Assembly: GCA_963575745.1 (NCBI GenBank)
Contig: CAUYUJ010000294.1
Span: forward strand, 62,001 to 115,713
Direction: 5' to 3'
DNA: 53,713 nt
Source: Prorocentrum cordatum
Lineage: Eukaryota
Below are positions 11,052-50,164 of this stretch, one piece after another (within the stretch, counting starts at the first letter, position 1; each line of letters begins with the position of its first letter). Both the position numbers and the translations under genes were made by a program. The notes under the pieces are model-generated. The model saw only the letters and a list, made by a program, of their open reading frames with translations, did not search any database and had not been told where the DNA came from.

Positions 11052-11083
<32 letters not shown>

Positions 11084-15894: not shown

Positions 15895-16051
15895 TTATGA
15901 GGCCGACGCTGGTTATAATAATGCTGGTGATGATGTTGGTGATGACAGCGATGGTGATGATGATGATGATGCTGATGATGATGATGATGATGATGATGAT
16001 GAGTATTAGGATGATGGTGATGATGATGATGATGCTGATGATGATGATGAC

Positions 16052-16085
<34 letters not shown>

Positions 16086-28169: not shown

Positions 28170-29874
28170 CAGAATTATAGGCTAGCCACCACCAGCGGAT
28201 CTCGCCGGCCTGCCGCGCATAAGTTTTTGCAAAACCCGCAGGCCAGAGAACCCACCATCGTTTGTGCCTGTGCCCAGGAGTGTAAGTTAGCCGAAGGCGA
28301 TAGCATTGTACAGCAGATACAATGGTGCGCGCCTCAAGGGTGGCTGGCCTACGCAACTCCTGCTACGGTGAACCCCGCCTTTGAGCTGGCTTCAGGAGCC
28401 GAGTTTTTGTTTCGGGAGGGTTTGGACCTGGGGGTTCAACCTCTGCTGTTTCCCTCGGATTGTGTGCCCGCTCGCTTGTCTGGAGAGACCCTTGTGATCC
28501 CTGGGTCCCCAAAATTCGCTTTGTGTTACGTATCTTCATGCCGCTGCGGGTCCAAGGCTAATTTAAACCGCGTGGCCACCAACGGCCAACCTCAGGATGA
28601 CTCAGTGTATTCAGTTACTTTAAAAGCCCCTCGCTGCATAGGCCCCAGAAGCTGCTTGCTCACAACCCAGTGGGCCCGCAAGCGCCAGAAGTGAGACGGC
28701 GCCAGACTGCCGCGAACGTGAATTATGCCTCGCAGTTGATTGATGATGCCCAACGGCCGCTCACCGATCAGCAGCCGACGTCGATCCTGGACCACGCGCA
28801 CTACACCCTGGCCCAGGACTTGGAAGCTACAATCAATAGAAGAACCAACGCGCCCTTTAAACCCAGTAAGTGTCCCAAGGATCAGCCCCCCCAGTTTAAT
28901 AAGGCCCCCGCGGTGGCCAAAGAGGCTCGTAGCAGAGCCAACGGGGCGGCGCTTACGGGCACGTTCAGAGGGTTGCGTAATCAAGTTCAGGAATGTAGGA
29001 GCTGTATTCAGGGCTGGAATGTGATTGAATTTCAGGACGCCCTGGACAGCCCGGAGGATTGCCCCGAGTCGTGCTCCACCGTGGTGCCCCTCAAGGAGGG
29101 GATTCAGGATGTCCGAGTAGCCGCAGGTTAGCTTCTTACTGAATTCCAGGTCGGCGTTCCAAATCAGACGCTGGCGCAGCAAGTGTTAGACGAGTTGCTG
29201 GAGCAGGTTACCAAGCACCTGCAACAGGAGCTGGCTGGCCACTATATTGTTGAATTGATCTACGAACAATCCTTGGGATGCGTGTTCAACAGCTCTACCG
29301 AAGATCAACAACACAGCGCCCAGGTCCCTTACGAGCTATATAACTATTACTATTATGTTTATGCTGACCGGCCTTATCTTGCGCATCGTGCTGTTGAGCC
29401 TGGTGTTTCAAGTTGTTTACTACAAATCATTCTATCCCAGTGCGCCAGCGAACACATCGTTTCATTGCAAGATTGTGCGGTCAGCGGCGGTAAACCTTGG
29501 AGGGGTGTTACTGCTGGCAGCATTGTGACCACGAGCCTTGTGCAGTTGTATATCATCGCCCCCTCGGTCATATGGACACAGGCCCATAGTCACAGTAGGC
29601 TCGCGACGCTCATTGATAATATGTTGATCCAGTGCCACGGCCGCAGTGTCAGCCTCATCGTCAGCCAGATGAACACAGCCGCCAGACGGAAGGCGAATTG
29701 CATCAGCCACGAGTCTAAGTGCCAGATGGACAGCAAGAAGACCCAGGTGCCAGCGTCTCACCAATCCCTGCAGGACCAGCTCAGGACTAAGATGGGGCCC
29801 CTTGCAGGCCCGAACCCTGATCGTTCGGGATCCAACCTGGGAAAAGAAACGGGGGCTGGCCGACCCCAGAGAAG
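28170..29874 (+). pseudogene. LINE ORF2 5' part: APE endonuclease and reverse transcriptase remnants
   Basis: CAQECKL...QWCAPQGWLAYATPA...ASGA is like the APE N-terminus. In 29183..29890, RGVTAGSIVTTSL (G..aG motif), LIDNM (decayed YxDD), SKKTQV and NLGKETGAG are RT-like. There are frameshifts and stops. Confidence 0.6.
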
Positions 29875-30572
29875 CTCGTATAGCTGCTAGTCGGCCGCGC
29901 AGGCCGGGAAAGAGCTAACACATTCGCAGATACATCTTCCTCCATCGTTGTATCGTGTGGGAGACAGTTGATGTAGGGATGTGACGATACAGGTTCGTTT
30001 TACTCGCTCAACTGCTGCAGTCCAGTTGACAGATCTTGAGCCAAATAACGACGGATGCTTTGCCCGTCCTGCTCTCTATGGCAGATTTGCCGCAAGAGCG
30101 CTGCAAGAAATTATATGTTACAACATACTACAAGTACAAGGGGCGAGAAAGGATGCGCGATTATCGTGGCGCCTTTGCGTGCCTTCGCACGCTCTTGTCG
30201 CACCGGCAATCCCACGGTCGCACCAGCAGACAGATGGTCGCACCAGCAGACAGATGGTCGCACCAGCAGCCAGGTGACGCCACAGCGTCGCGCGCTTCGG
30301 GGAGGTTGCTCAGGTTCTAGCGGAGGAGGGGATACACAAGAAAGAGAAATAGAGAAAGAGATTATGCTACAACGTGCTTTGGCGACAGAGCACTCGTCCC
30401 GTGACACCCGAGGGCGGGGGGACGTTGAGCAACCATCCAGTGACACCCGAGGGCGGATGGACGGTCGCTCAGTAGTGCAAGGCTGCTGCTACGTGATGCT
30501 CACTCAGAAACGCTCCATGATACAAATCATGCTGACACTTGTATCGTCACATGTTTCGGGGGTCTCTACGCA
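29875..30572 (-). repeat. 3' LTR (698 bp)
   Basis: Matches 39373-40070 at offset 9498 with no differences seen. ORF-track translations from both copies are identical. Sense termini are TGCGTAGAG...CTATACGAG. Confidence 0.97.
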
Positions 30573-30580
30573 CTCCCCCT
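30573..30580 (-). promoter_or_regulatory. Polypurine tract
   Basis: Minus strand AGGGGGAG immediately before the TG of the 3' LTR, which is typical of copia. Confidence 0.9.
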
Positions 30581-30623: not shown

Positions 30624-33600
30624 TCAAGCCGCCTTTGGCTTCTCTGTTGCACCAGGCGTCCAGCATGGCGGAGGGTACTCTCCCCGCATCGCCTTCCGGA
30701 TGTTCTCCAACACATCCGTGCTGGCAAGTTTTGTCAAGGCGTCTGAGACCATAGTCTTGGTCGGCTCGTGTCCGAGAAGAAGTCTGCCCTTGAGGAGTTC
30801 TTCCTGGATCCTGGAAGCCCTGACCCCGAAGTACCGGGTGCGCCAATTCGACCCCTGCTCCGCGATCGCCAGGGCGGCGTCGTTGTCCAGCAGAAGCTTG
30901 ATTGGCTCCAGCTCGATACCCCATTCCTCGAGTAACGCCCGGATGCCTTCGACGATCTGCCACGCGAGCGCTGCTGCACCTAGCTCCGCCTCTGCTGTGC
31001 TGAGAGAGCTGACAGTCTGGCGCGACGAGCGCCACAGCAGCGGAGCTCCTGCCCAACTCAGGAAAACACCTGACTGAGCTCTGGTACTCACTCCTGCATA
31101 GCCAGCGTCTGACCAAGCTACCAAAGAAGCCTCATTTCCACCGCTGGGCAGAAATAGCCCACAGTCACGTGTACCCTTAAGGTATCGCAAGATTTTCTTC
31201 GCCAGCTGCTCGCTCCACTTGGCGTGCTTGCTCAGGGCGGAGGCTAACAGGCAGGTGAAATAGGCGAGGTCAGCCCGTGTTCTTGTGGATAGCCAATTAA
31301 ACTCTCCTGCGTAACTCTGAAGCTCGCGAAGTTTGTCTTGACCTGGCTGGTCCTCCTCTCCCGGGGGGTCCATGGTGACTGTGTTCAACGCCTTCGCATC
31401 GGACATACCATGCTTCTCAAGGATCATATCAATGAAGTGCTTCTGGTGGAGGACAATCCCATCGGCGAGCCGCTGGATCTGGAGGCCAAGAAACGTGATC
31501 TCGGTGCCAGCCTCAAGCTTCACCTCTTGCTTCATTGTCCAGTGCTTGGCCAGGGCTTCCTTGAAGTTCGTCCGCATCTCGTCCTGCGGGCAGGCCAGCA
31601 AGAAGTCGTCTACGTAGACAATGAGCAATCCGAGCACTACATTCACGCCCTTCTCGGTTATCTTCCACACCTGACTGTCCTCAGCGCACTGTTCGAGGCA
31701 ATAAGTTTTGCCCTGAGCCTTCCAAGTAAGATTCCGGAACACCCGGTCCCGCTCTTTGCCCCAAGCCCTGGGTGCGACCCTCAAGCCGTACACTGCACGT
31801 TGTAAGACCCACACTTCTCCGGGTACTACGAGCCCGGCTTCGACGAAGGCTTTGGGCGGATTCACCAGGACGAGGACGGTCTCAGGGAGCGGCGCGTACA
31901 TGAATGCACCTGACACGTCAAGAGTGCCGAAGTCCCATCCTCGCAGGAGTCCCATACGTAATCCGGCGAGCAAGCTGGACGTCTCGGCTTGCGCTGTCCA
32001 CAGGGCCTGGCTGGGGTCGTTGCGCTCGAAGTTGCCGCACACGACTGCCCGGACTCTGTAGATGCCTCCCTGCTTCTTCGTGTACACGAGCTTCATCGGC
32101 AAGGGAGGGCCATGGCGTCTCTTGTCCGCCTCTGTGGCGGTCCTGTATACATTTCGCTGAACGAAATTCTCGACGTATTCCTTCTCTGTGGCAGCGCGCC
32201 ACTGCTCAGCTTCACGCCCAGTGGTCTCGCGTACTTCGGCAGCTGGGACTGTCACAGACCCCGGGCCGTCCATGAGATTGACATCGTGTTCTGTAGACAA
32301 CCCATGAACAACGTCGGGAGGCACATCGACCGCCTCGCCGTGAGCTCCGGTCAGGAGCGCCCTCACGGTGACCATCCTCTCCGTCACGGAGCGTTTTTCT
32401 TTGAACCTCTTACGGCGGTGAGGCTGCATGAGGACTGATGTTCCGGGAAGTGGGTGCTCTTCGTCCTCTTCGTTCTGCTCCTCTGGCAACGCTGCCACGG
32501 CCTTCTCCGTAGCAGGCGAATCGTCATCACCACCATCAGGTCCTGCGTGTTCTTCGTCCAGAGACTGGCCAGTGATGTGCACAAGCCCCGAGCCGCTGAT
32601 CCACTCGTCCGCATCGAAATCTGTGTCAGACTCGGTGTCCGTCTGAACGGGGGCGTGGTCTGGGCTGCATGTTGTGTCTGACCAAGTGCCTCCAGTGGCT
32701 CCCACAGAAGACGGTCCTGCATGGCTGCTCGAACACTCAGACATGGCCACAGCAGCGTGCGGGAAGATCGCCAGACGCCGATGTACATCATCAGGTACCT
32801 TCTGTATTGTTATTTTTCGGTGGGAAGGTCTCCCAGGCAAACTCGCTGACGAAACAGATGCTACTGCAGCTTGGAATGACGGGTCCTCCATAAACGGGAC
32901 GATCTGTGGAGAGTTGCCGAGCTGCTCAACCAGTTCCTCTAGCCTAACAAGGACTGGAGGCGGCTTTTCTTCCACGTTCAGATCTTCAGGGGGGTGCTCG
33001 GGCAACGACTCGTCTGGCAGCACCGCTGAAGCAGGAACAGGACCTCCAGGGGCACGATTGCCTGCATGATCATGCTCTGGAAAATCCACAGCTGCAGCGT
33101 CGAAGAGGGATGCTTGTGGAGGAGGCATCGCCGCAATCGGCGTTTCGTACTCGTCCCAGCTGGCCTTGACGATGACAAGCTCGTCTTGCGTCAGCCCGGC
33201 CGTCTGGATGTTGACCTTCGGCACGACCTTCCCAGACTGGTACACCCACAGAGCATCCGGAATGTTCTCACATGGGCCAAAACACGTGGCCGGAAGCGCT
33301 CTCGGAAGGAACGCGTTGCGTGGCGCTGGCGTAAGGTTGACCATCACACGTGTACCAAAAGGCACTTTAGGCGGCCTTGCTTCTCCGGCGTCCACCCGAC
33401 TGAGATGAGCTGCCGCCAAGACTGCCATGCCCCACCACCGTGTGGGGAGCCGGTTCAGGCTGAGAAGGTATCTGCCTCTGGGTTTGATGACTCCCACAGA
33501 TGCCTCAGCAGTGCCATTGCTGCTGGGGTCGTACCCCTGTGTCGTAGCGAAGTGGATAGCATGGTACTTTAGATAATCAGCCAGCGCTGCATTGACGAAC

Positions 33601-36600
33601 TCGCCGCCGCGGTCTGAATGAAGCCGATACACGATCCTATTCGGTAAGTTTCCAAATTCAGACCGTATCTGGGCCAAAATTTCTTGGATCTTGGCCGGGG
33701 CCTCGTTTTTCTTGACCAGTAGGGCCACGTAGTACAACGCCTTCACATTGTCATCCGGAGGCTGGTCGGCAGCACCAGGCGGTAAGTCAGCCGCCGGCTG
33801 GGCCATGCCAATTTCTGCCGCACCCTCACCAGGCGGCTCCTTCGGAAACTTCACCGTGAGCACAAGAAAGTAGTGTGCCGGCGAAGACCCAACCTTCTGG
33901 CCTGGCTGCGGGGTGGCCTCGTGCGGGCCGCTGAGGTCCACGCTAGCCACTCCAAGGCTCTGGTTATGGTACCGTCTGTGGTAGTGTTTCCTTTGGGCCG
34001 CCGCTTGCCAGACAGCGTCTCGTTTGTCGTAGGTTTTCGGTTGCACCGCGCCTTCTGGGAGCTCCCCCACGATCCTCGGCACTGCGGGGGCACCAGGCTG
34101 TTCTGGAGGCGGTTGTGGTGCAGCCTGTGGTTCCTGTGGTGGTGCAGCTTGTAGTACTTGAGGTGGTAGTTCCTGTTGTGGTGGAGCCTGTTGTGGTGGA
34201 TCCTGCACTTCGTTCCTCTGCTCCCCCTGTGTCGCCGCCGATGCCAACCCGAAGCGCGGCTTGTGTTGGTTCAGCCACGGGTCGACCAGCCTTGTCCAGA
34301 CATGCAGGTGGCCACGTTGCGCCGCCACTGTCTTCAAGCTGTCCAGAGCTGCGCTGATGGAGTCGACTTTTCGGGATACTCCCTCGTCTGTCCAGCAACC
34401 GGAGGTGGACAAATCCTGCCCCCCCTCCTCCCGATTCATTCGCGGGCGGCCCGATGGCGAAAGACTCCCCCCATCGGCGGTGGTCAGGGGTACTTCGTTG
34501 AGGATGTCGTCGCAGAACTCGTCCGGGTAGGATGCTGATTGCGCTGTCCTGGACCCTCCGGGGCCAGAACCACGAAGGTGCAGGTGGGCATGTGACCCGT
34601 CACACAGCACATCTTGCTGCTGCGACTGGTTCGACTGGAGCTCCGTCCCCTTGCGTATCGGATAGCCTTCAATCGTAGCTCCGCGTTGGCATTGATCGAC
34701 TCGTCTCTTGGACCTGCCAAGGCCCGAAAGAAATCTGAGCGGCGATTCGGCGGAGTCGAATATGTCCGAGAAAGCAGGGTTCTCCAGTACATATTTCCTG
34801 TCCAAGAGTGTCTGCACGAAGCAGCACATTCCAATGAACTGTAATACTGGGAGCTCCGACTGGCGCATGGCAGGGCGCACTTCTGGTGCGAGGCCCCTCG
34901 CGTTCGCGCCCCACGGGTGGCAGTTGGGAGCTGCAAAGAGCATTGCTACTCCGATGAACAGCAGCGCGTGCAGCAAATGCACCTGGTCAACGAAGCGGGA
35001 CAAATTCCAGCCATACCTGTAGTCGACTGGTGGCATATGCGCAACTCCTTGTGCGCGAGCCCTGGTCGACAAGTTGCTGGATCCTGAACACCATTCCCAC
35101 AAACGGAACTTCGGCCCCTCCCCGTGACACCCGAGGGCGGGGGGGAGGAACCACCTCGTGACACCCGAGGGCGGGGAGGTGTCCGAATGTGGTTTTGGGT
35201 ATGAGTCGGCGGGCCTTCGCTCGAGCAGAGTCTGCGCCTGTTGCTCCCCCGGCTGGCACTTCTCCTCAAACCAGTCGGTGAAGGAGTCCGGGCCGACGTG
35301 CTCGGAGGTGTCCTGGTAGTACCTGTCCGGGATGCACTTGTACTTCCTCACCATCTGGGTGACCGTCTTGCTGTCCACCTCGCCTTCGAGATGCTTCAGC
35401 GAGTCGCGGATATCCCGTGTAGTAAGGGCCATCGTGCGCGCCACGCGGGCGCTGCTGACTACCGGAACAGTCGGTTTCCCATCCCTGCCTGGAGCGTCTT
35501 TGTTGGGAAGGTCCTTGAACAAGCGTTTGAATCCTTGCACTGATATGTACGGCAAGCAGCCCCACATATGCACCTCCACACTGTTGCCCTTGGGCGTCTT
35601 CAAGTAGGAGGAACCAATGGCGTACTCGCAGCCACGCGTCCATAGCCATCCCAATGGCAGAAGGTCGATGTTGTCATCTCCAGCCCTCTTCTCCACCCTG
35701 CAGATGGGGACGCCCTTCGGCCCCTGTCCTGTCTGGCACGGGCAGCTCCCCCAGGCGAGTTTCAAGGAGTCGGTCCAGCTGGAGGTCTCCTTGCTCGGCT
35801 CCTGGTGCACCAGGTAAACGTTGGCCCAGCTGTCCAGGCCGACCGCGCCCAGCGGGAACTTGTCTCCTTCAGGGCCGGCAGCGGCCGCGATGCAAGACTT
35901 GCTGGTGGAGCCCGGGCCCTTGTTGCCGTCGTAGCCCTTGCCCCCGCCGTCTTTCTTCCCTTTCGTTTTGCCTTTACCGCCTTTGTCTTGGGCAGCCTTC
36001 TGTTGAGCTTCGTCCCGTCTCTTGCGGTACTCCGTCCAGTTCTTGTCGAAGTCAGGGTCTTTCCCACCGCCAGGGGCCGTGCACTCTTTCGTGCTGTGGC
36101 CCTCTTCTCCACATATGAAACACCGATTCGCATTGGTAGGGATTCCCTCGTGCTTGAAGAAGCAGTTGATGCCTCGACTGCAGGACCCCTTTTTCCAATT
36201 GCGGCACTCCGGTGCCCATTTGGACGTCGTGGTAGAAACCTTCTCCCTGATGCCTGCTGCGGCTTGTGGTGCCGCCGAATCGCCTTGGCCACTGGTGGCA
36301 TCCGCATTCGCCTTGGCAGCTGCGGCTCTCCTTGCCTGCTCCTTCTTCTGGGTCTCCTGTCTCTTCTGGCTCTCCGTGAGAGGCAAGCCTGGGTTGCCGG
36401 TGCTCTTGCCCTGCAGCGCCAAGTACGAAAGCTCCCCCTCGGCGAACTCTGCTACTTTCCTCATGGAAGCGACGCTGATGACCTGTGGCAGGCCCAGGTT
36501 GTTCTCCAAGGCGACCCACCGGAGCCTTAGGTTCTCGTCTGCGTGCGCAAACACTCCAGAGAATATGCTTCGCATAGCTGTATACAAGATGGTCACGTCT

Positions 36601-39443
36601 GGAATTGCCATTCCCAGCTGACGGCATCTCCGGGCAGCCGCCCAGTACTTCTGGAGCTCGTTCAAAGCAGTCTCTGCCTTGGAACAGGGCTGAGGGTCAG
36701 TGAGCTGTTTAAGCACCGACGCCTTCTCATCCGCCGCTCCGGAGCAGCAGAGCTTCAGGAGTAAGTAGAGAATGTCCTGGGCCTCGTCGCGGATCCCCTG
36801 GACACCTCTCTGCGTCAGCTGTTTCTTCAGCTGCTGGGGCAATGAGGCCAAGAGGCGGGGCTTGATCCACGTCTCTATCTGGCACCATTTCTGCTGGTTC
36901 CTCGGCCCCACTGTGATCCCCTCCCTGGTCATGATGGGAGTAGATAGGTATCTGGAATGGGTCTCTTCGGCCGCCTTCCAACACCACACCCACCACTCGA
37001 CCACTGCTGGCCCTGCGGCCTCCAGAATCTGGAACACCGCGTAGCGCCACTTTCGAAGGTGCTCCGGGCGGTCTTGGATCGCCCCGAGCTCCAACACTGG
37101 GAATTCCCCGACACAGGCCTGGACGGCCCGGAGGATGAAGTTCAGCTCGGCTGAAGAGAGACTCGTTGACACCGGGACGACTGTCTCCCCCAGTCCGTGG
37201 GAGCTGCTGCCCTGCCCACCTGTGGGCGCCGCCCCGGCTTGCGGAGCGTGGCTCTGAGGATCTCCCGGTGGAGCTTGTCCAGGGTAGTGGGCGCCATCCC
37301 CTGACCCTCCACCAGCCGACCCTGCGAAGAACGAGAAGACATCATCAAAACATCGTGGAGCTTCTTCATGCTGCGGTGCACGCTGGTGCCATACCTGTAC
37401 GGCCAGACTCGGGTCTCCCGTGCCTCCCAGCAGCATGTGTTCCTGTGTCCTGACGCCTCCTCCCAGAGCTGCGATTCCCCCTCCTCCTTGAGTCCCCACA
37501 GGCCTAGTGTCGAAGGCCGCCAAGGGCAGGTCTTGGAAGGGCGCGAGCCCTGGTGGTACTGGTGCAGTCTGGGATCCTTGACGATGCACTCCTTGCTGCA
37601 GTCTGGAATGCGTGTTGGGGATGTCCCGCTGCGTGTGGGATGCCAGTGCTGCTGCGGTGAGGTCGCCCGGCTGCGCTTGCACAGCCACGCGATCTGCCAG
37701 CGCTGGCACCTGCGGCCCCATTGAGAAGGGGGCTCGTTGTGGATTGGGCAACGACAGTGGTGTCGCTGACGATGCGTCAGTAGTTAACTGATTCACACCC
37801 ATGACATTCTGCCAGAAATCGTCGCCTTCTCCCTGCTCTGTGCCCCCATCCCGGGGTGTGCTACCCGAGCTGAGGACGTAGTTTTGTACTCCCCGGCGCC
37901 CTGGCTCAGCCGCAGTCGGCTGCTCCGCGCCGCCGGAGCACTGGCCAGACACTTGAAGGTTGTGGTCCTCCGTGCCGGGGCTCCAGTAGTCGTTCCAGTT
38001 CTGAACCTCCGCCTCGATCTTATCAAGACGCGCAGCCATCTCTGCCAGCCCTGTGGTGCACGCGTGGTCGGTGCGGGTCACAGCCAGCTCAATGGACTCG
38101 ACTTTCTCGAGTACCTGCTTGAGGATCTCTGGAATGTAGTCGTTGGACGTCTGGGGAACTTGTTCCCGTCCAGGCGGAGGTGCGCGCGCAGACTGCCCCG
38201 TGACACCCGAGGGCGGGGGGACAGCCAACGCGCCTTCCTCGACCGACAGTCCCGTGACACCCGAGGGCGGGGGGACAGCCAGTGCGCCTTCCTCGACCGA
38301 CAGTCCCGTGACACCCGAGGGCGGGGGGACAGCCAGTGCGCCTTCCTCGACCGACAGTCCCGTGACACCCGAGGGCGGGGGGACAGCCAGTGCGCCTTCC
38401 TCGACCGACAGTCCCGTGACACCCGAGGGCGGGGGGACAGCCAGCGCGCCTTCCTCGACCGACAGTCCCGTGACACCCGAGGGCGGGGGGACAGCCAGTG
38501 CGCCTTCGTCTGCTGCAGTGGTGCTGGCCTGAGGCGCGAGCGCAGCCTGCTGCGCCACGCCAGGCACTACTTCTGGCCCCTCTGCAGAGACGAATGATTG
38601 ATCCGCCGTGGAACCGTGCTTCTGAGCGTAGTATGTAGAGCCTGGAAACCCTACACAATCTCCAGTCCGGAGGTGTGGTAGATGACCGGTATTCCTTGAA
38701 TGGCAAGCCAAACAGTGTCCCTCCATCCTTGCCCTCGCAGGGGTCATGGTGATCAAGGGGTTCGGCCTTGCACCAAGAGAATGAGGACGCATCCTCCGCT
38801 TCGAGACTGGCGCTACTGGGTGTGGAGATGGAGGCACCGGCACTTGCAGCGCAGGTGTTGGTACTGCTTGTGCGAGTTCGTCTAACGCTGCGTGTGATGT
38901 AGGTGCCGCCTCTGTTGGGGCGTCTTGGAGAGCCCGTTGGGTGCGGTCGCGGCCCCGAGGGCTGGCACTGGCTACTGCTGCCACTGCGCCACTCGCAAAG
39001 CCCACTGCGGCTCCAGCCACGGCAACGGCAGCTCCCCCCACCGCGGCGCCCACAGCTGTGGAAAGCCCCAGGGCTTGTGTTGCTCTGGTCTTCCAGGTCG
39101 CCAGCTGCTCCACGTAGTAGCGTTTCCACTGCTCCCTCATCTGTTGGTCGTGCTGTTGGGAGTAGTTGACGATGACCTGCCTCATGCACTCGCCGCAGAA
39201 TGGGACGCCCTGGAAGCGCTCCAGCTGCAAGCAAGATGCGTGCCCATAGGACCCGCACTGGCTGCAAGTCACCGGGTCCGTGACCATGGTGTGGCACTTA
39301 GGGCAATCGCACTGGAAGCCCCTGTACGTGCTGAGGTACTCGACGCACTGCAGTGACGTTGGGTTATGAGCCCTCGTATAGCTGCTAGTCGGCCGCGCAG
39401 GCCGGGAAAGAGCTAACACATTCGCAGATACATCTTCCTCCAT
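30624..39443 (-). CDS. Copia Gag-Pol polyprotein, 2939 aa: PHD - Gag(CCCH, CCHC) - PR - C5-MTase-like - IN - RT - RNase H
   Basis: PHD CPKC..CSQC....H..C..CGEC (about 39186-39305). CCCH CRNWKKGSCSRGINCFFKH (about 36150-36206). CCHC CFICGEEGHSTKEC (about 36081-36123). Protease LDSWAN (about 35830). MTase-like (about 34495-35110). Integrase VDLSGP / HSDRGGEF / SNGTAE (about 33250-33960). RT LDVSGAF, YGLRVAPRAW, YVDD (31605-31616). RNase H WSDAGYAG, LSTAEAE, LDNDAA. Confidence 0.97.
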   Translation of the reverse strand: MEEDVSANVLALSRPARPTSSYTRAHNPTSLQCVEYLSTYRGFQCDCPKCHTMVTDPVTCSQCGSYGHASCLQLERFQGVPFCGECMRQVIVNYSQQHDQQMREQWKRYYVEQLATWKTRATQALGLSTAVGAAVGGAAVAVAGAAVGFASGAVAAVASASPRGRDRTQRALQDAPTEAAPTSHAALDELAQAVPTPALQVPVPPSPHPVAPVSKRRMRPHSLGARPNPLITMTPARARMEGHCLACHSRNTGHLPHLRTGDCVGFPGSTYYAQKHGSTADQSFVSAEGPEVVPGVAQQAALAPQASTTAADEGALAVPPPSGVTGLSVEEGALAVPPPSGVTGLSVEEGALAVPPPSGVTGLSVEEGALAVPPPSGVTGLSVEEGALAVPPPSGVTGLSVEEGALAVPPPSGVTGQSARAPPPGREQVPQTSNDYIPEILKQVLEKVESIELAVTRTDHACTTGLAEMAARLDKIEAEVQNWNDYWSPGTEDHNLQVSGQCSGGAEQPTAAEPGRRGVQNYVLSSGSTPRDGGTEQGEGDDFWQNVMGVNQLTTDASSATPLSLPNPQRAPFSMGPQVPALADRVAVQAQPGDLTAAALASHTQRDIPNTHSRLQQGVHRQGSQTAPVPPGLAPFQDLPLAAFDTRPVGTQGGGGIAALGGGVRTQEHMLLGGTGDPSLAVQVWHQRAPQHEEAPRCFDDVFSFFAGSAGGGSGDGAHYPGQAPPGDPQSHAPQAGAAPTGGQGSSSHGLGETVVPVSTSLSSAELNFILRAVQACVGEFPVLELGAIQDRPEHLRKWRYAVFQILEAAGPAVVEWWVWCWKAAEETHSRYLSTPIMTREGITVGPRNQQKWCQIETWIKPRLLASLPQQLKKQLTQRGVQGIRDEAQDILYLLLKLCCSGAADEKASVLKQLTDPQPCSKAETALNELQKYWAAARRCRQLGMAIPDVTILYTAMRSIFSGVFAHADENLRLRWVALENNLGLPQVISVASMRKVAEFAEGELSYLALQGKSTGNPGLPLTESQKRQETQKKEQARRAAAAKANADATSGQGDSAAPQAAAGIREKVSTTTSKWAPECRNWKKGSCSRGINCFFKHEGIPTNANRCFICGEEGHSTKECTAPGGGKDPDFDKNWTEYRKRRDEAQQKAAQDKGGKGKTKGKKDGGGKGYDGNKGPGSTSKSCIAAAAGPEGDKFPLGAVGLDSWANVYLVHQEPSKETSSWTDSLKLAWGSCPCQTGQGPKGVPICRVEKRAGDDNIDLLPLGWLWTRGCEYAIGSSYLKTPKGNSVEVHMWGCLPYISVQGFKRLFKDLPNKDAPGRDGKPTVPVVSSARVARTMALTTRDIRDSLKHLEGEVDSKTVTQMVRKYKCIPDRYYQDTSEHVGPDSFTDWFEEKCQPGEQQAQTLLERRPADSYPKPHSDTSPPSGVTRWFLPPALGCHGEGPKFRLWEWCSGSSNLSTRARAQGVAHMPPVDYRYGWNLSRFVDQVHLLHALLFIGVAMLFAAPNCHPWGANARGLAPEVRPAMRQSELPVLQFIGMCCFVQTLLDRKYVLENPAFSDIFDSAESPLRFLSGLGRSKRRVDQCQRGATIEGYPIRKGTELQSNQSQQQDVLCDGSHAHLHLRGSGPGGSRTAQSASYPDEFCDDILNEVPLTTADGGSLSPSGRPRMNREEGGQDLSTSGCWTDEGVSRKVDSISAALDSLKTVAAQRGHLHVWTRLVDPWLNQHKPRFGLASAATQGEQRNEVQDPPQQAPPQQELPPQVLQAAPPQEPQAAPQPPPEQPGAPAVPRIVGELPEGAVQPKTYDKRDAVWQAAAQRKHYHRRYHNQSLGVASVDLSGPHEATPQPGQKVGSSPAHYFLVLTVKFPKEPPGEGAAEIGMAQPAADLPPGAADQPPDDNVKALYYVALLVKKNEAPAKIQEILAQIRSEFGNLPNRIVYRLHSDRGGEFVNAALADYLKYHAIHFATTQGYDPSSNGTAEASVGVIKPRGRYLLSLNRLPTRWWGMAVLAAAHLSRVDAGEARPPKVPFGTRVMVNLTPAPRNAFLPRALPATCFGPCENIPDALWVYQSGKVVPKVNIQTAGLTQDELVIVKASWDEYETPIAAMPPPQASLFDAAAVDFPEHDHAGNRAPGGPVPASAVLPDESLPEHPPEDLNVEEKPPPVLVRLEELVEQLGNSPQIVPFMEDPSFQAAVASVSSASLPGRPSHRKITIQKVPDDVHRRLAIFPHAAVAMSECSSSHAGPSSVGATGGTWSDTTCSPDHAPVQTDTESDTDFDADEWISGSGLVHITGQSLDEEHAGPDGGDDDSPATEKAVAALPEEQNEEDEEHPLPGTSVLMQPHRRKRFKEKRSVTERMVTVRALLTGAHGEAVDVPPDVVHGLSTEHDVNLMDGPGSVTVPAAEVRETTGREAEQWRAATEKEYVENFVQRNVYRTATEADKRRHGPPLPMKLVYTKKQGGIYRVRAVVCGNFERNDPSQALWTAQAETSSLLAGLRMGLLRGWDFGTLDVSGAFMYAPLPETVLVLVNPPKAFVEAGLVVPGEVWVLQRAVYGLRVAPRAWGKERDRVFRNLTWKAQGKTYCLEQCAEDSQVWKITEKGVNVVLGLLIVYVDDFLLACPQDEMRTNFKEALAKHWTMKQEVKLEAGTEITFLGLQIQRLADGIVLHQKHFIDMILEKHGMSDAKALNTVTMDPPGEEDQPGQDKLRELQSYAGEFNWLSTRTRADLAYFTCLLASALSKHAKWSEQLAKKILRYLKGTRDCGLFLPSGGNEASLVAWSDAGYAGVSTRAQSGVFLSWAGAPLLWRSSRQTVSSLSTAEAELGAAALAWQIVEGIRALLEEWGIELEPIKLLLDNDAALAIAEQGSNWRTRYFGVRASRIQEELLKGRLLLGHEPTKTMVSDALTKLASTDVLENIRKAMRGEYPPPCWTPGATEKPKAA
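34495..35110 (-). other. C5 cytosine DNA methyltransferase-like domain within the polyprotein
   Basis: Motifs in the expected order: I LWEWCSGSS, II/III VDYRYGWNL, IV FAAPNCHPW (Cys at 34920-34922), VI VLENP (34776-34784), VIII VDQCQRG..IRKGT, X AQSASYPDEFCDDI. Confidence 0.8.
38190..38507 (-). repeat. Six 54-bp tandem repeats in gag (EEGALAVPPPSGVTGLSV)
   Basis: Near-identical units with cores at 38200, 38254, 38308, 38362, 38416 and 38470. Confidence 0.95.
39361..39373 (-). promoter_or_regulatory. PBS position: GGGCTCATAACCC, tRNAiMet anticodon-arm sequence in sense orientation
   Basis: Immediately follows (and overlaps by 1 nt) the 5' LTR on the coding strand. It is the reverse complement of the GGTTATGAGCCC-type half-tRNA PBS. 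Confidence 0.6.
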
Positions 39444-40070
39444 CGTTGTATCGTGTGGGAGACAGTTGATGTAGGGATGTGACGATACAGGTTCGTTTTA
39501 CTCGCTCAACTGCTGCAGTCCAGTTGACAGATCTTGAGCCAAATAACGACGGATGCTTTGCCCGTCCTGCTCTCTATGGCAGATTTGCCGCAAGAGCGCT
39601 GCAAGAAATTATATGTTACAACATACTACAAGTACAAGGGGCGAGAAAGGATGCGCGATTATCGTGGCGCCTTTGCGTGCCTTCGCACGCTCTTGTCGCA
39701 CCGGCAATCCCACGGTCGCACCAGCAGACAGATGGTCGCACCAGCAGACAGATGGTCGCACCAGCAGCCAGGTGACGCCACAGCGTCGCGCGCTTCGGGG
39801 AGGTTGCTCAGGTTCTAGCGGAGGAGGGGATACACAAGAAAGAGAAATAGAGAAAGAGATTATGCTACAACGTGCTTTGGCGACAGAGCACTCGTCCCGT
39901 GACACCCGAGGGCGGGGGGACGTTGAGCAACCATCCAGTGACACCCGAGGGCGGATGGACGGTCGCTCAGTAGTGCAAGGCTGCTGCTACGTGATGCTCA
40001 CTCAGAAACGCTCCATGATACAAATCATGCTGACACTTGTATCGTCACATGTTTCGGGGGTCTCTACGCA
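39373..40070 (-). repeat. 5' LTR (698 bp)
   Basis: Copy of 29875-30572. It contains the polyprotein ATG (39443). Confidence 0.97.
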
Positions 40071-40075
40071 AGAAG

Positions 40076-41832
40076 ATGGGCGAATGTTCGGAAACCTGCG
40101 GAGCGTCTTGGAAAGATGCGTAACATACATAACAAGGTCCGTATGTTGAAACGCGCTGGGGGTTACACTCAGAATGGCCTTGAAGCGGCCACTACCCCTG
40201 GAGTTGAGGTCGCTGGCACCAGCGGCACTCAACTTGTTGCAGCTAGGTCGCAGTTTCCTGCTGCCGCGGGCCCGAGACGCTCGACTCGCAGCAGCAGCTT
40301 GGCGTGGCTCATCCTCCAAGACCCCTGTGGAAAGCTACCCTAGGCCCCCCGCCCTTAGGGGGGCAACGTTTAGTTTGGGATGCGTCCACCCGCCCGCTCT
40401 TAGCCGTGGCCAGTTGCCCGCAGCTGTGGGTCTGGACGAAAAACATCCCCCCGATTGTTCCTAAATCGTGGGGTCCCGCCTGGGGCCCCCTCTGTGTGGC
40501 GTCGCTTTCGCGTAAACGTGTTGGTTGGAAAATCCAAGGGCCGTTTCCCTTTGTGACTACCCCAGGTCTTGAGTATTCACTCCCAGGACACATCCCCACC
40601 TTCCTCCGAATGCCCATGGATCACGACTGGCACGGCCAGCTCGCGTCCACGGCGGCCGACAAGTTCGACCACGCGGACGCTCAGCTAGATATCGCTGCTG
40701 CTCGGACTGCCCTCTCGCCAGACCGCGCTGGGCACCAGAATGGCACCCTGCGCACCGACCTCAACCAAAGTATCTGGGCCATGGAAAGAGCCAGAACAGC
40801 TGGATATGAGAAAAATGAATAAAGCAGAGCCACTCACTTCTTGGCTGCGGAGCTTCTGCGTTTACTTGAGCCCCCTCCCCTGGCCCCTCAATTGCAACTT
40901 GGGCCCCCGCTGGTTCCTGAGTTCCGTTGAGCGCCTCCTCTTGGCTCTCGTTTGTCTTTTGGGGAGTTTTTGGTGTGCTCAAGTAGGAAGCAACACACAC
41001 GAGGCCTTCAGCGAAGGGGAAATGTATAAAGATGGCAGTTGCACCAAGCACGCGAACTATGTGCTCAACGCTGCTGGTATCGCTTTTGCGTGTATCAGAG
41101 ATGGTGAAGTTTTTTACCACATTCAGAGGCCGAGGCGGCCAGATTTTTTACTCTGACCGCAAGGGAGTGCTGAGGCTGCATCAAGGCACCGAGTACCCCC
41201 GTGTCCGCCGCCTGGCGGAAGGTAAACATGATGAGGACCGTTTCACGAAGGCAGCTACGCACAAGGGCGTTCAGCCCAGACAAGATGAGATGTGCAATTT
41301 CGATGAATATATGAAGTTTGTTTCTAAGTATCTCAAGTATGTGGCGCAGGCTCTGGGAGAGTGGCTCGTGACCGCCCCCAGCAAGTACAAAGGTCTGGCC
41401 GCCCCAGAAAGGAACCTTACTCCCCCCGCGGGTGCTGCCTCTGCCCTGGCGGCGTGGCCGCCGCCGTCGGTAGGGCATCATCCTCCTCCGTCGCCTGTGC
41501 CTCACGAAGTCTCTTGGGAGCCCAGAGAGCCTTGGGGTATTCACGCGTGGGCGAAAATTTCGCGGTATTCTCGCTGCACTCTGTGTAGGGTACAGACGAA
41601 GTCATTCAAACAGAGTGCAGGCTTTTGCGGCCAAGGAATGACCAGGCCACCACAAGCAGATGTCAAACCTGTGCATGATAATAAAGGCAAAGAATTCTTT
41701 TATTTTGAGCACCTTGAGCAGCCCACGGGTATTCGGGTGTGCCACAAGTGTGGATCCTACTCCGAGGGGTTGGGTCGAGGGCTCACTAGAGGCTACGGCA
41801 CTCGAGTGAGCCACCAAGGCGCGGCCACTTAG
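40076..41832 (+). pseudogene. LINE ORF2 3' part: post-RT region and RNase H remnants
   Basis: NKVRMLKRAG, GTLRTDLNQSIWAMERARTAGY, EMYKDGSCTKHANYVLNAAGIA (like YTDGS...RAG of RNase H) and Cys-rich CTLC / CHKC segments, fragmented across frames. Confidence 0.55.
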
Positions 41833-42229
41833 CTTGCCTGTGGCCAGGAAGGTCATGATCCCGTGGGCTCAAAGCCGCCCCCGATCATATATAAGACCCC
41901 ACTATTTCCCAGGCCAGAGTGGTAAGCGAAGCGCCAACCAAGGTCTGAGGAGAGGAGGCACCACCGCCTCCTTACTCTGCCGTGCTCTCTCTCTCGGCGG
42001 ACATCGAACTCTTCATAATTCATGTGCGTGTCCTCCTCCTCCTCCTCCTCTTCCTCCTCCTCCTCCAGCACCTACTCCTCCTCATCGTCCTCCTCCTCCT
42101 CTACTCCTTTTCTTTATAAGCAACTTCCCCTGTCGCACCCCGGGGCCAATTTCTAGGGCGGCCCAGGCGTGTCGCCTGAGACTTCCTCACCATTTATGGC
42201 CGTGAAATTGAAACAGTGGCAACAAATTC

Positions 42230-42600
42230 ACGGAAAAAGGGCGGGTCGTTTTCAAAATGTGGCTTGGCTGGGCGCAGCGCACATTCGTTCTAAACATTTA
42301 CAACAATTTCATGGATTGAGGCCGGTCCGTTTTCAAAATGTGACTTTCGCTGGAGCGCTCCGCACATTCGCTGTAAGCATGTGCAAGAGCTCTACGGATT
42401 GAGGCTGGTCCGTTTTCAAAGTGTGGCTCTCACCTGAGCGCTGCGCACATTCGTTCTAAACATGTGCAAGAACTATACGGATTGAGGGCGGTCCGTTTTC
42501 AACATGTGGCTCTCGCCTTATTGCCGAGTGCACTTGTCTTAGACACGTGCAAGAGCTCTACGGATTGAGGGCGGTTCCTTGTCAAAATGTGATTACGACA
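42230..42600. repeat. Diverged tandem repeat, about 83-bp unit, about 5 copies (further decayed units at about 43080-43320)
   Basis: GGATTGAGG.CGGTCCGTTTTCAAAATGTG recurs at about 42313, 42397, 42479 and 42562. Confidence 0.75.
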
Positions 42601-44257
42601 AATTCAAGAATTTACCAGATTCTCATGACCAGCGTACCAAACATGGGGTATGGGAAGGATTCAGGATTATGAGGGTGCAAGCAGTTACGACGACTTGCGG
42701 TGTTGAGATCCCAGGAATGGCGTTCTGGCGCGATTCTGGATCGTCGAGACCCAACAGTCAGGCTGATCCGCGGCCTTGGAATCCCGAGGACAATGTTTTG
42801 GCATGCTTCAGGGTCTTCAAACGGTTGTCTTCCAACGAGGCAGCCCCCTCAATGGAAATGAACCGTTGTAGGGGTCTGTGAAAAGGGAGCTAGGGGGGAG
42901 GGTTTATTCCAACATCGTTGATGACTTTTGGGTTTACACTGGTCCTATTGCTCCTCCTCCTGCGCCTCCCCCTCTCAACTCCTCCATCCGTTTTCCTTCT
43001 GGAGAACTCCTCCCTGTACCCCGAAACGTGTCGGCAAGGCGGACCAAGCGCTTCGCCTGAAAATTCCGCACCATCTACGATCCTGAAACTGAGAAATTGC
43101 AATAACTTCGCGGATGGATGGCGGGCCGTTTCCAAAATGTGATTCTCGCCTTAGCGCCACGCACACTCGTGATACGCTTTGCAAGAGTTTCACAAATTCA
43201 GAACGGGTCCTTTTGGAATGTGGCGTTCGCTATCGCGTGGTGCATTTTCGCCGTAACAGTTTACATCACATTCAAAGACTTTTATCGTTGACATTGAGTC
43301 GGGTCGGCCGCGCCAACATGCGCAGCAACACCACGCAAACATCGTGCTACACACCAGAACGCCGAGAATTCGAAAACGAACCGGGTATCGAGCCAGTCGA
43401 AATCGATATCAGCTCGGATCCACCGGATCGAAGAGGGCCCTGGGAGGAGGGCGAGGAGATCCGATCCCCGAACGACCCCCTGGTGACTGCATCAGGGAAG
43501 CACGCCTGCCCACTCGACAAGTCCTCCTGCTGTTCACCCACCTTAATATTAGGTCTGGCGTGTGTTCCTGCAGGCTGATCTCGGACGAAGAAAACAAAAC
43601 ATACAAGAATATTCAAGTACCAAAAATCCTCCCCATCCTATTGTTGACTATGTTTGTATATTCCTCCTGCAGAGGGAAAGGCCCGACTTCACCTGAATCC
43701 TCGTTCTCTCCCCCGAGCCTAGAATGTCGATCTACGAGCCTGTCGACCCACGGAGTTCGATCCTCGAAACCTCGAGGCTTCGAAACCACGGAAACTCGAA
43801 ACCTCGACCCTCTCCCCTCGATCCGCGATCCCCGAAGCGCGCTCCACGCAACCTCGCTTTGGCGGCGAGCGAGGGGGCGAAGTGAGGAGGATAAGCAGCT
43901 CTCAGGAGGCCCGGAGGTCACCCGGCCTCCTGAGAAGGTTTCTAAGCCTTCCCCGACGACGCAGAAAACCTCTCAGAAGGCGCGATGGCTTCTGAGAAGT
44001 CCCGCCGCCTTTTGAAAAGGCCCTCCTCCACTTCCTCCTCCTCCTCCTCATCATAAGCATCATCATCAGCATCATCATCATCATCAGCATCATCATCATC
44101 ATCATCAGCATCATCAGCATCATGAGCATCATCAGCATCATCAGCATCATCATCATCAGCAGCATCAGCATCATCATCATCATCACCATCACCATCACCA
44201 TCACCATCACCATCACCATCACCATCATCATCATCATCAGCATCATCATCATCATCC

Positions 44258-44290
<33 letters not shown>

Positions 44291-46314
44291 GCATCATCAT
44301 CATCAACATCATAATCATGATCATCATCATCCTTCCCTTCCTCCTCTCCTTCTCGCTCCTCGCTCCTCCTCCTTCCTCGCTCCTCCTCATTCTCCCCCTC
44401 CATCCTCATCCACCTCCCCTCCTCGCTCCTCCTCCTCCTCCTCCTCCTCCCCATGCTCGCTCCTCTCCCTCCTCGCTCCTCCTCCGTCCTCGCTCCTCCT
44501 CCTCCTCCACCCTCCTCCTCCTCCCCGTCCTCGTCTCCTTCTCACTTCCCCCCCAACGCACGCCGCCGATCGATCCTCGGACCTTCGATCCTCGAGCCTG
44601 CGGCCCTCGAGCGCCCCTGCTGGGTGGGCGCCTGCGCGGCCGCCCCAGGACTGCTGCTGGCCCCAGGGCGGCACGGGGGGGCCTTTGGGCGGGTCCAGCA
44701 GGGGAGGGGGGGAGAATCGTTCTCGATCCTCCTCCTCCTCCTCCTCCTCCTCCTCCTCCTCCTCCTCCTCCGCCTCCGCTCGCCCCCGGCCTCGCCCCCT
44801 CCTCCCCTCCTCCTCCTCCTCCTCCGCCTCCTCCTCCTCCTCCTCCTCCTCCTCCTCCTCCTCCCCTCCGCTTCCTCCTCTTCCTCCTCCCTCTCCTCCT
44901 CCTTCTCCTCCTCGCTCCTCCTCCTTCCTCCTCCCTCCTCCTCCTCCTCCTCCTCCTCGTCTTCCTCCTCCTCCTGCTCTCCTCCTCTCCTCCTCCTCCG
45001 CTTCCTCTTCCTCCTCCCTTCTCCTCCTCCTTCTCCTCCTCCTCCTCCTCCTCCTCCTCCTCCGCCTCCTCCCTCCTCGTCCTCCGCCTCCCCTCCTCCT
45101 CGTCTTCCTCCTCGTCCTCGCCTTCTCTCCTCCTCCTCCTCTCCTCCTCTCCTCTTCCTCCGCCTCCTCCTCTCTCCCCTCCTCCTCCTCCTCCCCACCC
45201 CCTCCTCCTCGCCCTCCGCCCTCTCCTCCCCCTCCTCCTCCTCCTCCTCCCTCATTCTCCTCCTCCCCCTCTTCCTCCTCGTCCTCCTCCTCATCCTCCT
45301 CCTCCTCCTCTCCTCCTCCCGCCTCCTCTCCTCCTCCTCCTCCCCCTCCTCCTCCTCCTCCTCCCCCCCCCCCACCCCCTCCTCCTCGCCCTCCGCCCCC
45401 GCCTTCTCCTGCTTATCTTCCTCCGCCTCCTCATCCTCCTCCTCATCCTCGTATTCGTCTTCTTAGTATTCGTATTGTTCTAAGTATTCATAGTCTTCTC
45501 GCTCGTACGAACAGAATTGTTATTTAATGATCAAAGTCTCCTTCATTGTTGCGTCATTAGTAGGATGATTATTACCATGATTCCTCTCATTATTATTCGT
45601 CATCTGCTGTTTCCTCCTCCTCCTCCAATCCTCCTCCCCCCTTCTCCTCCTCCCCCTCCTCTTCCTTCTCCTCCTTCTCCCCCCTTCCGCCCCCTCCTCC
45701 TCATCCTCCTCCCACCCTCCGCCCCCCCCCCTCCTCCTCCCCCCCTCCCCTCCCCTCCCCCGTCCCTCGTCCCCCGTTCCCCCGTCCCCCCGTCCCCCTC
45801 CGCTCTCCCTTCCCCCCTCCTCCTCTTCCTGCTCCCTCTCCTCCTCCTCCTTCTCCTCCTCCTCCTTCTCCTCCTCCCCCCCTCCCTCCTCCTTCCCTTT
45901 CTTTTCCTTTTCCGTCTCCTCCTCCGCCTCCTCCTCCCGTTTCGCCGTTCCTCCTCCTGCACCCTCCTCCTCCTGCTCCTGCTCCTGCTCCTGTTCCTGC
46001 TCCTGTTCCTGCTCCTGCTCCTCCTCCTCCTCCTCCTCCTCCTCCTGCTCCTCCTCCTCCTCCTCCTGTCGTCTGTCGTCTCTAAAGGTCGTTGCTGCAC
46101 TCGGTGCGTGTCGGGACGACGTGACATGGTGACGCCTGCCGTGTATGCCGCGGCAGCGCTCTGGACGTCATCGCACAACGCTCGTGCCATCAGGACACGC
46201 GCCCAGCACCGGCAGGAAGGGCAACACTCGGCCGCGGCGCCAGGGAGGAAAAGGTGGAGAAGGCGGAGGAGGAGGAAGAAGAGGAGGACGAGGAGGAGGA
46301 GGAAGAGGAGGAAA

Positions 46315-49671: not shown

Positions 49672-49709
<38 letters not shown>

Positions 49710-49880
49710 GCATCATCATCAGCATCATCATCATCATCAGCAGCATCATCATCAGCATCAGCATCATCAACATCAGCATCATCATCATCATCAGCATCAC
49801 ATCATCATCAGCAGCATCAGCATCAGCATCAGCATCAGCATCAGCATCAGCATCAGCATCAGCATCAGCATCAGCATCAG

Positions 49881-49937
<57 letters not shown>

Positions 49938-50164
49938 GGCCATCCTCGCCATCGTTCACAATATCACGACCACCATCGTCGACCTTAACATCGCCAGAAT
50001 CATCAACGCCGCCGTTAGCATCCGCCCTCATTCCTCACATGATCATCATGCCCGTGCTGAAAGACGAGGAGGGAGGGAAGAAAGGAGGAAGGAGGGAATG
50101 AGGATGGGATGGGGGAGGATTCGAGGGAGGCGGAGGGCTCCTAGGGAGTCAGCCAAAAAAAGCA

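What the first reader, a model, noticed from the sequence alone, without database searches (positions are those of the whole stretch)
39355..39380. Primer-binding site is 'backwards': the coding strand carries the tRNAiMet anticodon stem-loop itself
Seen: right after the 5' LTR the sense strand reads ACGA-GGG-CTCATAA-CCC-AACGT, a hairpin with a CAT anticodon loop closed by three G-C pairs and extendable by ACG/CGT. There is no TGG-type PBS. Known: Drosophila copia and yeast Ty5 prime with a half tRNAiMet through a sense-strand GGTTATG(G/A)GCCC, and three G-C pairs are the initiator-tRNA hallmark. Here the sequence is the reverse complement of that PBS, so the tRNA half cannot anneal, yet the element appears to have transposed recently. 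Inference: a possible undescribed priming mode (tRNA-mimic cleavage/self-priming or an antisense primer), or a local hairpin inversion.
Basis: partly seen in the sequence, partly recalled or inferred. Interest (0 to 1): 0.8.

Follow-up and report, generated by a model that had tools for sequence, protein, structure and literature searches.

The report
Flipped primer site in one retrotransposon copy
One young copy of a copia-type jumping gene has the 7-base loop of its primer-binding site turned around, while its sister copies and many related families keep the ordinary initiator-tRNA site, so this is a private mutation (or an assembly error) and not a new way of starting reverse transcription.

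Summary
The window holds a 10,196-bp Ty1/copia element on the minus strand, with identical 698-bp LTRs, a 5-bp target duplication and a 2,957-aa ORF. Directly after the 5' LTR, its sense strand reads GGGCTCATAACCC, the same sense as a tRNAiMet anticodon arm.

- Contigs from three public runs of three studies cover the site. All differ from the window by four edits, which together equal an exact reverse complement of the 7-nt loop (39364-39370). Their sense strand therefore reads GGTTATGAGCCC, the usual half-tRNAiMet primer-binding site.
- The site lies in frame with gag. A 94%-identical sister peptide reads TR-VMS-P where the window reads TR-AHN-P.
- Of the 150 best related proteins from a 1.84-billion-protein library, 93 carry VMSP, 2 carry VMRP, 7 start at MSP and none carries AHNP.

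The family is therefore an ordinary copia/Ty5-type element primed by a half tRNAiMet. The window copy carries a private loop inversion, probably a template-switch mutation and less likely an assembly error. Interest is low.

The parts
39373..40070 (-). 5' LTR (698 bp). In sense orientation it starts TGCGTAGAG and ends CTATACGAG.
   Evidence: It is 698 of 698 identical to 29875-30572.
29875..30572 (-). 3' LTR (698 bp).
40071..40075 (-). Target-site duplication, 5' copy (CTTCT in sense orientation).
29870..29874 (-). Target-site duplication, 3' copy (CTTCT in sense orientation).
39358..39372 (-). The primer-binding-site position, flush with the 5' LTR. In this copy the sense strand reads GG-CTCATAA-CCC-AAC, so only the stem bases and AAC keep the family's sequence.
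39364..39370 (-). The 7-nt loop that is reverse-complemented relative to sister copies (window sense CTCATAA, sisters TTATGAG). It is flanked by GGG/CCC.
   Evidence: One search lists four edits: 39364 T>C, a C inserted behind 39365, 39368 G>A, and 39370 left out. They appear in the only contig over the site in each of X1, X2 and X3. One search shows that these four edits equal an exact reverse complement of the loop.
30573..30580 (-). Polypurine-tract-like AGGGGGAG directly 5' of the 3' LTR.
   Evidence: read from the sequence
30624..39497 (-). A single stop-free frame of 2957 codons that runs from inside the 5' LTR through the primer-binding site into gag-pol.
39441..39443 (-). First in-frame ATG, inside the 5' LTR (MEEDVSAN...). 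In sister copies a second in-frame ATG lies inside the primer-binding site itself.
38137..38564 (-). 54-nt tandem repeats (18-aa units EEGALAVPPPSGVTGLSV) in the gag region.
36081..36122 (-). CCHC zinc knuckle of gag, preceded by a CCCH finger.
   Evidence: E = 0.00049, 20.5 bits against a cut-off of 20.8
33525..33728 (-). Weak match to the integrase core, including HSDRGGEF. It lies upstream of the RT, which is the copia order.
   Evidence: rve, E = 0.0014, 19.3 bits, below the 32.6 cut-off
31380..32108 (-). Copia-type reverse transcriptase (RVT_2, with YVDD).
   Evidence: E = 3.3e-21, 76.4 bits

Best explanation
The element belongs to a large group of Ty1/copia retrotransposons of marine protists. 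[quoted passage not shown] A 5' half of that tRNA, cut in the anticodon stem, primes minus-strand DNA synthesis.

The copy in the window carries a private mutation. The 7-nt loop between GGG and CCC has been reverse-complemented, so the sense strand now looks like the tRNA instead of its complement.

Shown: the flip is exact, it is absent from sister copies, and the normal orientation is conserved across the group.

Inferred, origin: the flip is a real quasi-palindrome template-switch mutation. It arose either during chromosomal replication or, more attractively for so young a copy, during the reverse transcription that made it. In that case, minus-strand synthesis reaching the genomic primer-binding site jumped at GGG onto the still-annealed primer tRNA, copied its loop, and jumped back at CCC. 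This yields exactly the window's + strand.

Inferred, consequence: the flipped site leaves only GG and CCCAAC matching the family site, plus 2 of 7 loop positions. This copy is therefore probably impaired for priming further rounds.
For: (1). In each of X1, X2 and X3 (three studies), the only contig over 39364-39370 carries the same four edits. No contig listed in the four runs carries the window's form. In X4, the one listed piece that reaches the LTR edge (39373) runs on unlike the window before it, so it does not cover the site.

(2). The four edits equal an exact reverse complement of 39364-39370. The sister sense strand carries GGTTATGAGCCC after the LTR, and the frame is kept (TSSYTR-VMS-PTSLQC against the window's TSSYTR-AHN-PTSLQC).

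(3). P0086, from an independent protein collection, is 59 of 63 identical to the window. Three of the four differences are AHN>VMS. The fourth (Y>F) matches the 39337 T>A change seen in X1.

(4). All 3 homologues that cover the place read VMSP or VMRP. The fourth hit starts further downstream.

(5). A profile search found 236 hits at E <= 0.001. Among the best 150:
- 93 carry VMSP and 2 carry VMRP, placed 5-82 aa (median 22) upstream of the Cys-rich gag domain.
- The motif is preceded by T in 83 of 95 and R in 87 of 95, within otherwise variable sequence.
- 7 more start at MSP.
- 4 show one-residue variants of TRVMSP (TRDMSP, TRVVSP, TRAMSP, TRVTSP).
- 0 of 150 carry AHNP.

(6) Half-tRNAiMet priming is established for copia and Ty5 (passages in PMC5371799 and PMC10886601) and for the plant Osser, Bryco and part of the Gymco-II lineages (passages in PMC6317226).

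(7) LTRs identical at 698 of 698 bases and an open frame show a very young insertion. That leaves little time for a mutation after insertion.
Against: - I saw difference tables, not contig sequences. The X2 and X3 contigs end only 24-35 nt from the changed letters. Only the X1 contig bridges the site widely (159 nt or more on each side).
- Logan contigs drop rare variants, so the absence of the window's form in X1-X4 does not show that it is absent from those samples.
- X1 may be the source organism or a close strain, so it is not fully independent.
- For the 150 relatives I saw only protein. That VMSP is encoded by GTT ATG AGC CC is inferred.
- No host genome is held and no tRNA gene lies in the window. 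Complementarity to the host's own tRNAiMet is therefore untested.
- Nothing here separates a real mutation from an assembly or consensus error.
- The reverse-transcription origin gives the same product as any other hairpin inversion, so the sequence alone cannot prove it.
Confidence: 0.72

Rival explanations
1. The flip is not in the organism's DNA. It is an assembly, polishing or consensus error at a small quasi-palindrome in a multi-copy element.
For: No listed contig of the four runs laid carries the window's form. The best holder, X1, has only 0.66 of the sampled words of the stretch. The element is multi-copy, which makes consensus errors easier.
Against: A clean 7-nt reverse complement with unchanged length is not a usual error of short-read or long-read assembly (my knowledge, not tested). 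The stems are only 3 bp, too short to confuse a k-mer graph. Contigs drop rare variants, so the absence seen is weak evidence.
Confidence: 0.18
2. The flipped site marks a heritable sub-lineage that still transposes. It would prime through the remaining stem and flank matches, or be rescued because the plus-strand copy of the site is templated by the tRNA.
For: The LTRs are identical and the frame is open, so this copy moved recently. If the flip had been in the parent RNA, that parent was mobile.
Against: 0 of 3 sister contigs, 0 of 150 relatives and the sister peptide P0086 show the flipped form. A flip made during or after the last round explains the same facts without any functional claim.
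Confidence: 0.07
3. A new priming mode. The sense-strand tRNAiMet-like hairpin would be a functional tRNA mimic, cleaved to self-prime or bound by an antisense primer.
For: Only the sequence itself: a 13-nt identity in sense to a tRNAiMet anticodon arm, flush with the LTR.
Against: - The feature is private to one copy.
- No complement of 8 nt or more to the post-LTR 60 nt exists in the LTR, so there is no Tf1-type self-primer (the only match is one 7-mer).
- No Rfam tRNA or other family match at or near the site at E <= 10 (the only match is narK at E = 4.9, elsewhere in the stretch).
- The hairpin is no more stable than shuffles.
Confidence: 0.03

Closest known systems
Saccharomyces Ty5 and Drosophila copia (Ty1/copia elements primed by a 5' half of initiator tRNA-Met)
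   Same: In sister copies and relatives, the primer-binding site abuts the 5' LTR and is the complement of the tRNAiMet anticodon stem-loop. The elements have a copia-type RT (RVT_2), a 5-bp target duplication and a purine tract before the 3' LTR. I could not check that motif in print: Ke et al. 1999 is not held.
   Different: - The window copy has the loop flipped.
- The element is far larger (10.2 kb, with a 2957-codon frame).
- The LTR ends in AG, not CA.
- The frame runs from the LTR through the primer-binding site.
- Priming has not been shown experimentally here, and the host tRNA was not seen.
Plant Osser, Bryco and part of the Gymco-II copia lineages (half-tRNA-Met primer-binding sites; PMC6317226, passages read)
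   Same: They have the same type of primer-binding site within Ty1/copia, and it is lineage-specific.
   Different: The hosts and families differ, and I built no phylogeny.
Candida albicans Tca5 (Ty5-like; PMC4139406, passages read)
   Same: Its primer-binding site is complementary to tRNAiMet, and its single long ORF starts inside the left LTR, so it runs through the site.
   Different: It is a fungal element of about 5 kb. No flip is reported for it.
Hairpin-loop (quasi-palindrome) inversions by template switching, as known from organelle and bacterial DNA (recalled, not looked up here)
   Same: The loop between short inverted repeats is exactly reverse-complemented, with unchanged length.
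   Different: Here the stems are only 3 bp. The site is one where a complementary RNA (the primer tRNA) is annealed during reverse transcription, which offers a specific second template.

Membership tests
Ty1/copia LTR retrotransposon | Two direct LTRs flanked by a short target-site duplication | tested here: met
   The LTRs are 698 bp and 698 of 698 identical. The 5-bp duplication is CTTCT.
Ty1/copia LTR retrotransposon | Copia-type reverse transcriptase (Pfam RVT_2) | tested here: met
   E = 3.3e-21, 76.4 bits against a cut-off of 31.6, at aa 2464-2706.
Ty1/copia LTR retrotransposon | Integrase encoded upstream of the reverse transcriptase | tested here: inconclusive
   There is an rve match at aa ~1924-1991, upstream of the RT, but it is weak (E = 0.0014, 19.3 bits, below the 32.6 cut-off). 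The HSDRGGEF motif is present.
Ty1/copia LTR retrotransposon | LTR termini TG...CA (usual, not strictly defining) | tested here: not met
   The LTR starts TG but ends ...ACGAG. The conserved T-R before VMSP in relatives (83 and 87 of 95) suggests that this terminus is typical of the group.
Copia/Ty5-type elements primed by half tRNAiMet | [quoted passage not shown] | tested here: not met
   For the window copy as it stands, the loop is in tRNA sense. For the family the feature is met at motif level: 3 of 3 sister contigs, P0086, and 95 of 150 relatives with VMSP or VMRP.
Copia/Ty5-type elements primed by half tRNAiMet | Complementarity to the host's own initiator tRNA | not testable with these tools
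   No genome is held and there is no tRNA gene in the window.
Copia/Ty5-type elements primed by half tRNAiMet | A cleaved 5' tRNA half found joined to minus-strand strong-stop DNA | not testable with these tools
   This needs wet-lab cDNA mapping.
Tf1-type self-priming elements | The 5' end of the transcript is complementary to the primer-binding site (about 11 nt) | tested here: not met
   The longest complement between the LTR and the 60 nt after it is one 7-mer.

The most novel reading that the evidence does not exclude
The flip was written by the element's own reverse transcriptase. Minus-strand synthesis, on reaching the genomic primer-binding site that was still paired with the primer, jumped at GGG onto the tRNAiMet half, copied its anticodon loop, and jumped back at CCC. 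The sense strand of this copy would then carry sequence templated by the primer tRNA itself. Such copies would be natural records of primer identity and of template switching at the primer-binding site, and they could be searched for across genomes.
Probability: 0.3. Interest if true: 0.4.

Novelty: new member of a known kind. Interest (0 to 1): 0.18.

Why it matters
The finding removes a claimed new mode of retrotransposon priming. The family uses the long-known half-tRNAiMet primer, and the 'backwards' site is a one-copy lesion.

Two smaller points may be useful.
- The primer-binding site is in frame with gag in this group, so it shows up as an invariant TRVMSP island in otherwise variable peptides. 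This gives a cheap protein-level marker for this type of site in metagenomic data.
- An exact loop flip in a brand-new insertion is a candidate footprint of reverse-transcriptase template switching onto the primer tRNA.

Tried and rejected
- **Host genome.** None is held. No tRNA gene lies in the window. The host tRNAiMet could therefore not be compared.
- **DNA of relatives.**
  - A pattern with a free 7-nt loop found 0 loci in viral contigs and 0 in metagenome contigs.
  - The gag N-terminal profile A1 found no relative in metagenome contigs (188 pattern matches, none confirmed) or in viral contigs (39 matches, none confirmed).
- **Protein searches.** The 'longer' search gave nothing. A 130-aa query returned only P0005.
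- **Earlier findings of this scan.** None.
- **Symbiodinium SmTCL elements (PMC5776459).**
  - My 10-13-nt motifs were absent from the 12 of 18 supplementary files that were searched.
  - The LTR ends of this element were absent from the SmTCL3 alignment, so SmTCL3 is a different family.
  - Six files were not searched, and motifs broken by line ends would be missed.
- **Tf1-type self-priming.** Rejected.
- **Full tRNA mimic.** Rejected: no Rfam match at the site.
- **Hairpin stability.** Not above shuffles.
- **Second near-match at 15892-15904.** Chance, in a simple repeat.
- **Taxon of the host.** The Atlas neighbours of the RT region carry too few taxon records to say: Haptophyta for 2 members and Bacteria for 1.
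- **Parts of the stretch without cover in X2-X4.** These say nothing.
Full report
**What is there**

The window holds one full-length LTR retrotransposon of 10,196 bp on the minus strand.
- Two 698-bp LTRs (29875-30572 and 39373-40070) are identical at all 698 positions.
- They are flanked by a 5-bp duplication, CTTCT in sense orientation.
- A single stop-free frame of 2957 codons runs from inside the 5' LTR (39497) to 30624.
- The frame holds a CCHC zinc knuckle (aa 1126-1139) and a weak integrase-core match at aa ~1924-1991 (E = 0.0014, below Pfam's cut-off).
- It also holds a clear copia-type RT (RVT_2, E = 3.3e-21, aa 2464-2706).
- AGGGGGAG sits directly 5' of the 3' LTR.

This is a young Ty1/copia-type element.

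**The observation**

Directly after the 5' LTR, which ends ...ACGAG, the sense strand reads GGCTCATAACCCAACGTC. With the last LTR base this gives GGGCTCATAACCC, the same sense as a yeast- or plant-type tRNAiMet anticodon arm.
- No TGG occurs in the next 60 nt.
- The exact 13-mer is unique in the window. A 1-mismatch hit at 15892-15904 lies in a CAT-rich simple repeat and is chance.
- The hairpin appears in the predicted fold, but the region folds no better than shuffled sequence (z = -0.49).
- No Rfam family matches at the site, and ARAGORN finds no tRNA in the window.
- The LTR holds no complement longer than 7 nt to the 60 nt after it, so there is no Tf1-type self-primer.

**Sister copies**

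No genome is held for this window, so I used public runs. The stretch 39100-39700 is held in part by 20 listed runs of 15 studies. Most are marine or estuary metagenomes.

I laid Logan contigs of X1-X4 on 38900-40100. In X1, X2 and X3 (three studies), one contig per run covers 39364-39370, and each shows the same four differences from the window:
- 39364 T>C
- a C put in behind 39365
- 39368 G>A
- 39370 left out

In each run these letters account for all the depth at the place. A script shows that the four edits together equal an exact reverse complement of the 7-nt loop 39364-39370, or equally of the 13-nt stem-loop.

The sisters' sense strand therefore carries GGTTATGAGCCC flush with the LTR.

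Caveats:
- The X1 contig bridges the place by 159 nt or more on each side. The X2 and X3 contigs end 24-35 nt from the changed letters.
- In X4, the one listed piece that reaches the LTR edge (39373) runs on unlike the window before it, so it does not cover the site.
- No listed contig carries the window's form, but contigs drop rare variants, so that absence proves little.

**Protein-level evidence**

The frame runs through the site, so its orientation can be read in peptides. The window gives TSSYTR-AHN-PTSLQC, and the sister DNA gives TSSYTR-VMS-PTSLQC.
- A word-indexed search with the first 315 aa found four proteins. The three that cover the place read TRVMSP (P0002) or TWVMRP (P0003, P0005).
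- A profile of these was searched against 1.84 billion representatives and gave 236 hits at E <= 0.001. The best 150 were listed.
- Of those 150, 93 contain VMSP and 2 contain VMRP. The motif lies 5-82 aa (median 22) upstream of the Cys-rich gag domain.
- It is preceded by T in 83 of 95 and by R in 87 of 95, amid otherwise variable sequence.
- Seven more proteins begin at MSP. Four show one-residue variants (TRDMSP, TRVVSP, TRAMSP, TRVTSP).
- Most of the remainder start downstream of the place.
- None of the 150 contains AHNP.
- P0086 (63 aa) is 59 of 63 identical to the window. Three of its four differences are AHN>VMS, and the fourth (Y>F) corresponds to 39337 T>A seen in X1.

An invariant hexapeptide in hypervariable surroundings is what a nucleotide-level constraint would produce, here pairing with a tRNA. 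That the codons are GTT ATG AGC CC is shown for the sister DNA and inferred for the other relatives.

**Mechanism**

The family is best read as an ordinary copia/Ty5-type element. A 5' half of tRNAiMet, cut in the 3' strand of the anticodon stem, would anneal to GGTTATGAGCCC(AAC) and prime minus-strand DNA. The U5 boundary falls exactly at the first base of the site, as that model requires.

Half-tRNAiMet priming is documented for the following (passages read in each paper):
- copia and Ty5 (PMC5371799, PMC10886601)
- a Ty5 family in Saccharomycodes (bioRxiv 10.1101/2025.04.25.647736)
- the plant lineages Osser, Bryco and part of Gymco-II (PMC6317226)

The primary papers (Kikuchi 1986; Ke 1999) I saw only in reference lists, and PMC1369817 is not held.

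The window copy carries an exact loop inversion between GGG and CCC. The inversion keeps length and frame.

**Origin of the flip (inference)**

The LTRs show no substitution in 2 x 698 bp, so little time has passed since insertion. That makes an event during the founding reverse transcription attractive.

When minus-strand DNA synthesis reaches the genomic site, that site is still paired with the primer. A jump at GGG onto the tRNA, copying of its loop, and a jump back at CCC would yield exactly the window's + strand. The sense-strand loop would then be tRNA-identical.

An ordinary replication template switch, or an assembly error, gives the same product. I put these at about 0.3 for reverse-transcription origin (within the 0.72 for a real private mutation) and 0.18 for an artefact.

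In the flipped site, only GG, CCCAAC and 2 of 7 loop positions still match the family site. This copy is probably a poor template for another round.

**Comparison and novelty**

The kind is known. This is a new, unusually large member of it from a marine protist, with one damaged copy.
- Its LTR ends in AG rather than CA. The conserved T-R codons before VMSP suggest that this terminus is shared by the group.
- An ORF that starts inside the left LTR and so crosses a tRNAiMet primer-binding site is reported for Candida Tca5 (PMC4139406, passages read), so that feature is not new either.
- The 'dinoflagellate' label was not tested. The Symbiodinium element SmTCL3 is a different family, and the Atlas neighbours give no usable taxon.

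**Verdict**

Interest is low.

Noticed in passing
window 39358-39372 and proteins P0002-P0151: In this group the primer-binding site lies in frame with gag, and its ATG (the complement of the CAU anticodon) is in frame. It appears as an invariant TRVMSP island in 93 of the 150 relatives. Gene callers start 7 further proteins exactly at this M. The ATG inside the site may be the real gag start codon, so the same AUG would serve both initiator-tRNA decoding and primer annealing. In the window copy this ATG is destroyed by the flip, and only the upstream LTR ATG (39441-39443) remains.
   Followed up: partly
window 39373-39377 and 40066-40070: The LTR termini are TG...AG, not TG...CA. The terminal inverted repeat is imperfect (TGCGTA / TACGAG). 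The conserved T-R codons before VMSP in relatives suggest that the ...ACNAG end is typical of the group.
   Followed up: partly
window 34398-35897 (minus strand; aa ~1201-1700 of the polyprotein): About 500 aa between the zinc knuckle and the integrase match no Pfam family at E <= 1. The polyprotein (2957 aa) is about twice the usual copia length, so it may hold the protease and an extra, unrecognised domain.
   Followed up: partly
window 38137-38564: Six tandem 54-nt units (96-97% alike in the core) encode 18-aa repeats EEGALAVPPPSGVTGLSV inside the gag region.
   Followed up: no
window 39100-39700: Parts of the stretch are held by marine and estuary metagenomes and by six RNA runs of several studies. 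The family appears widespread in marine plankton and may be transcribed.
   Followed up: no
window 8800-16600, 26000-26800, 42000-46100, 49500-50100: There are long tracts of degenerate trinucleotide-type simple repeats (CAT/GAT-rich and CCT-rich) on both sides of the element. Tandem arrays of 101 nt (21076-22691), 77 nt (24099-25044), 83 nt (42268-42599) and 87 nt (50888-51147) are also present.
   Followed up: no
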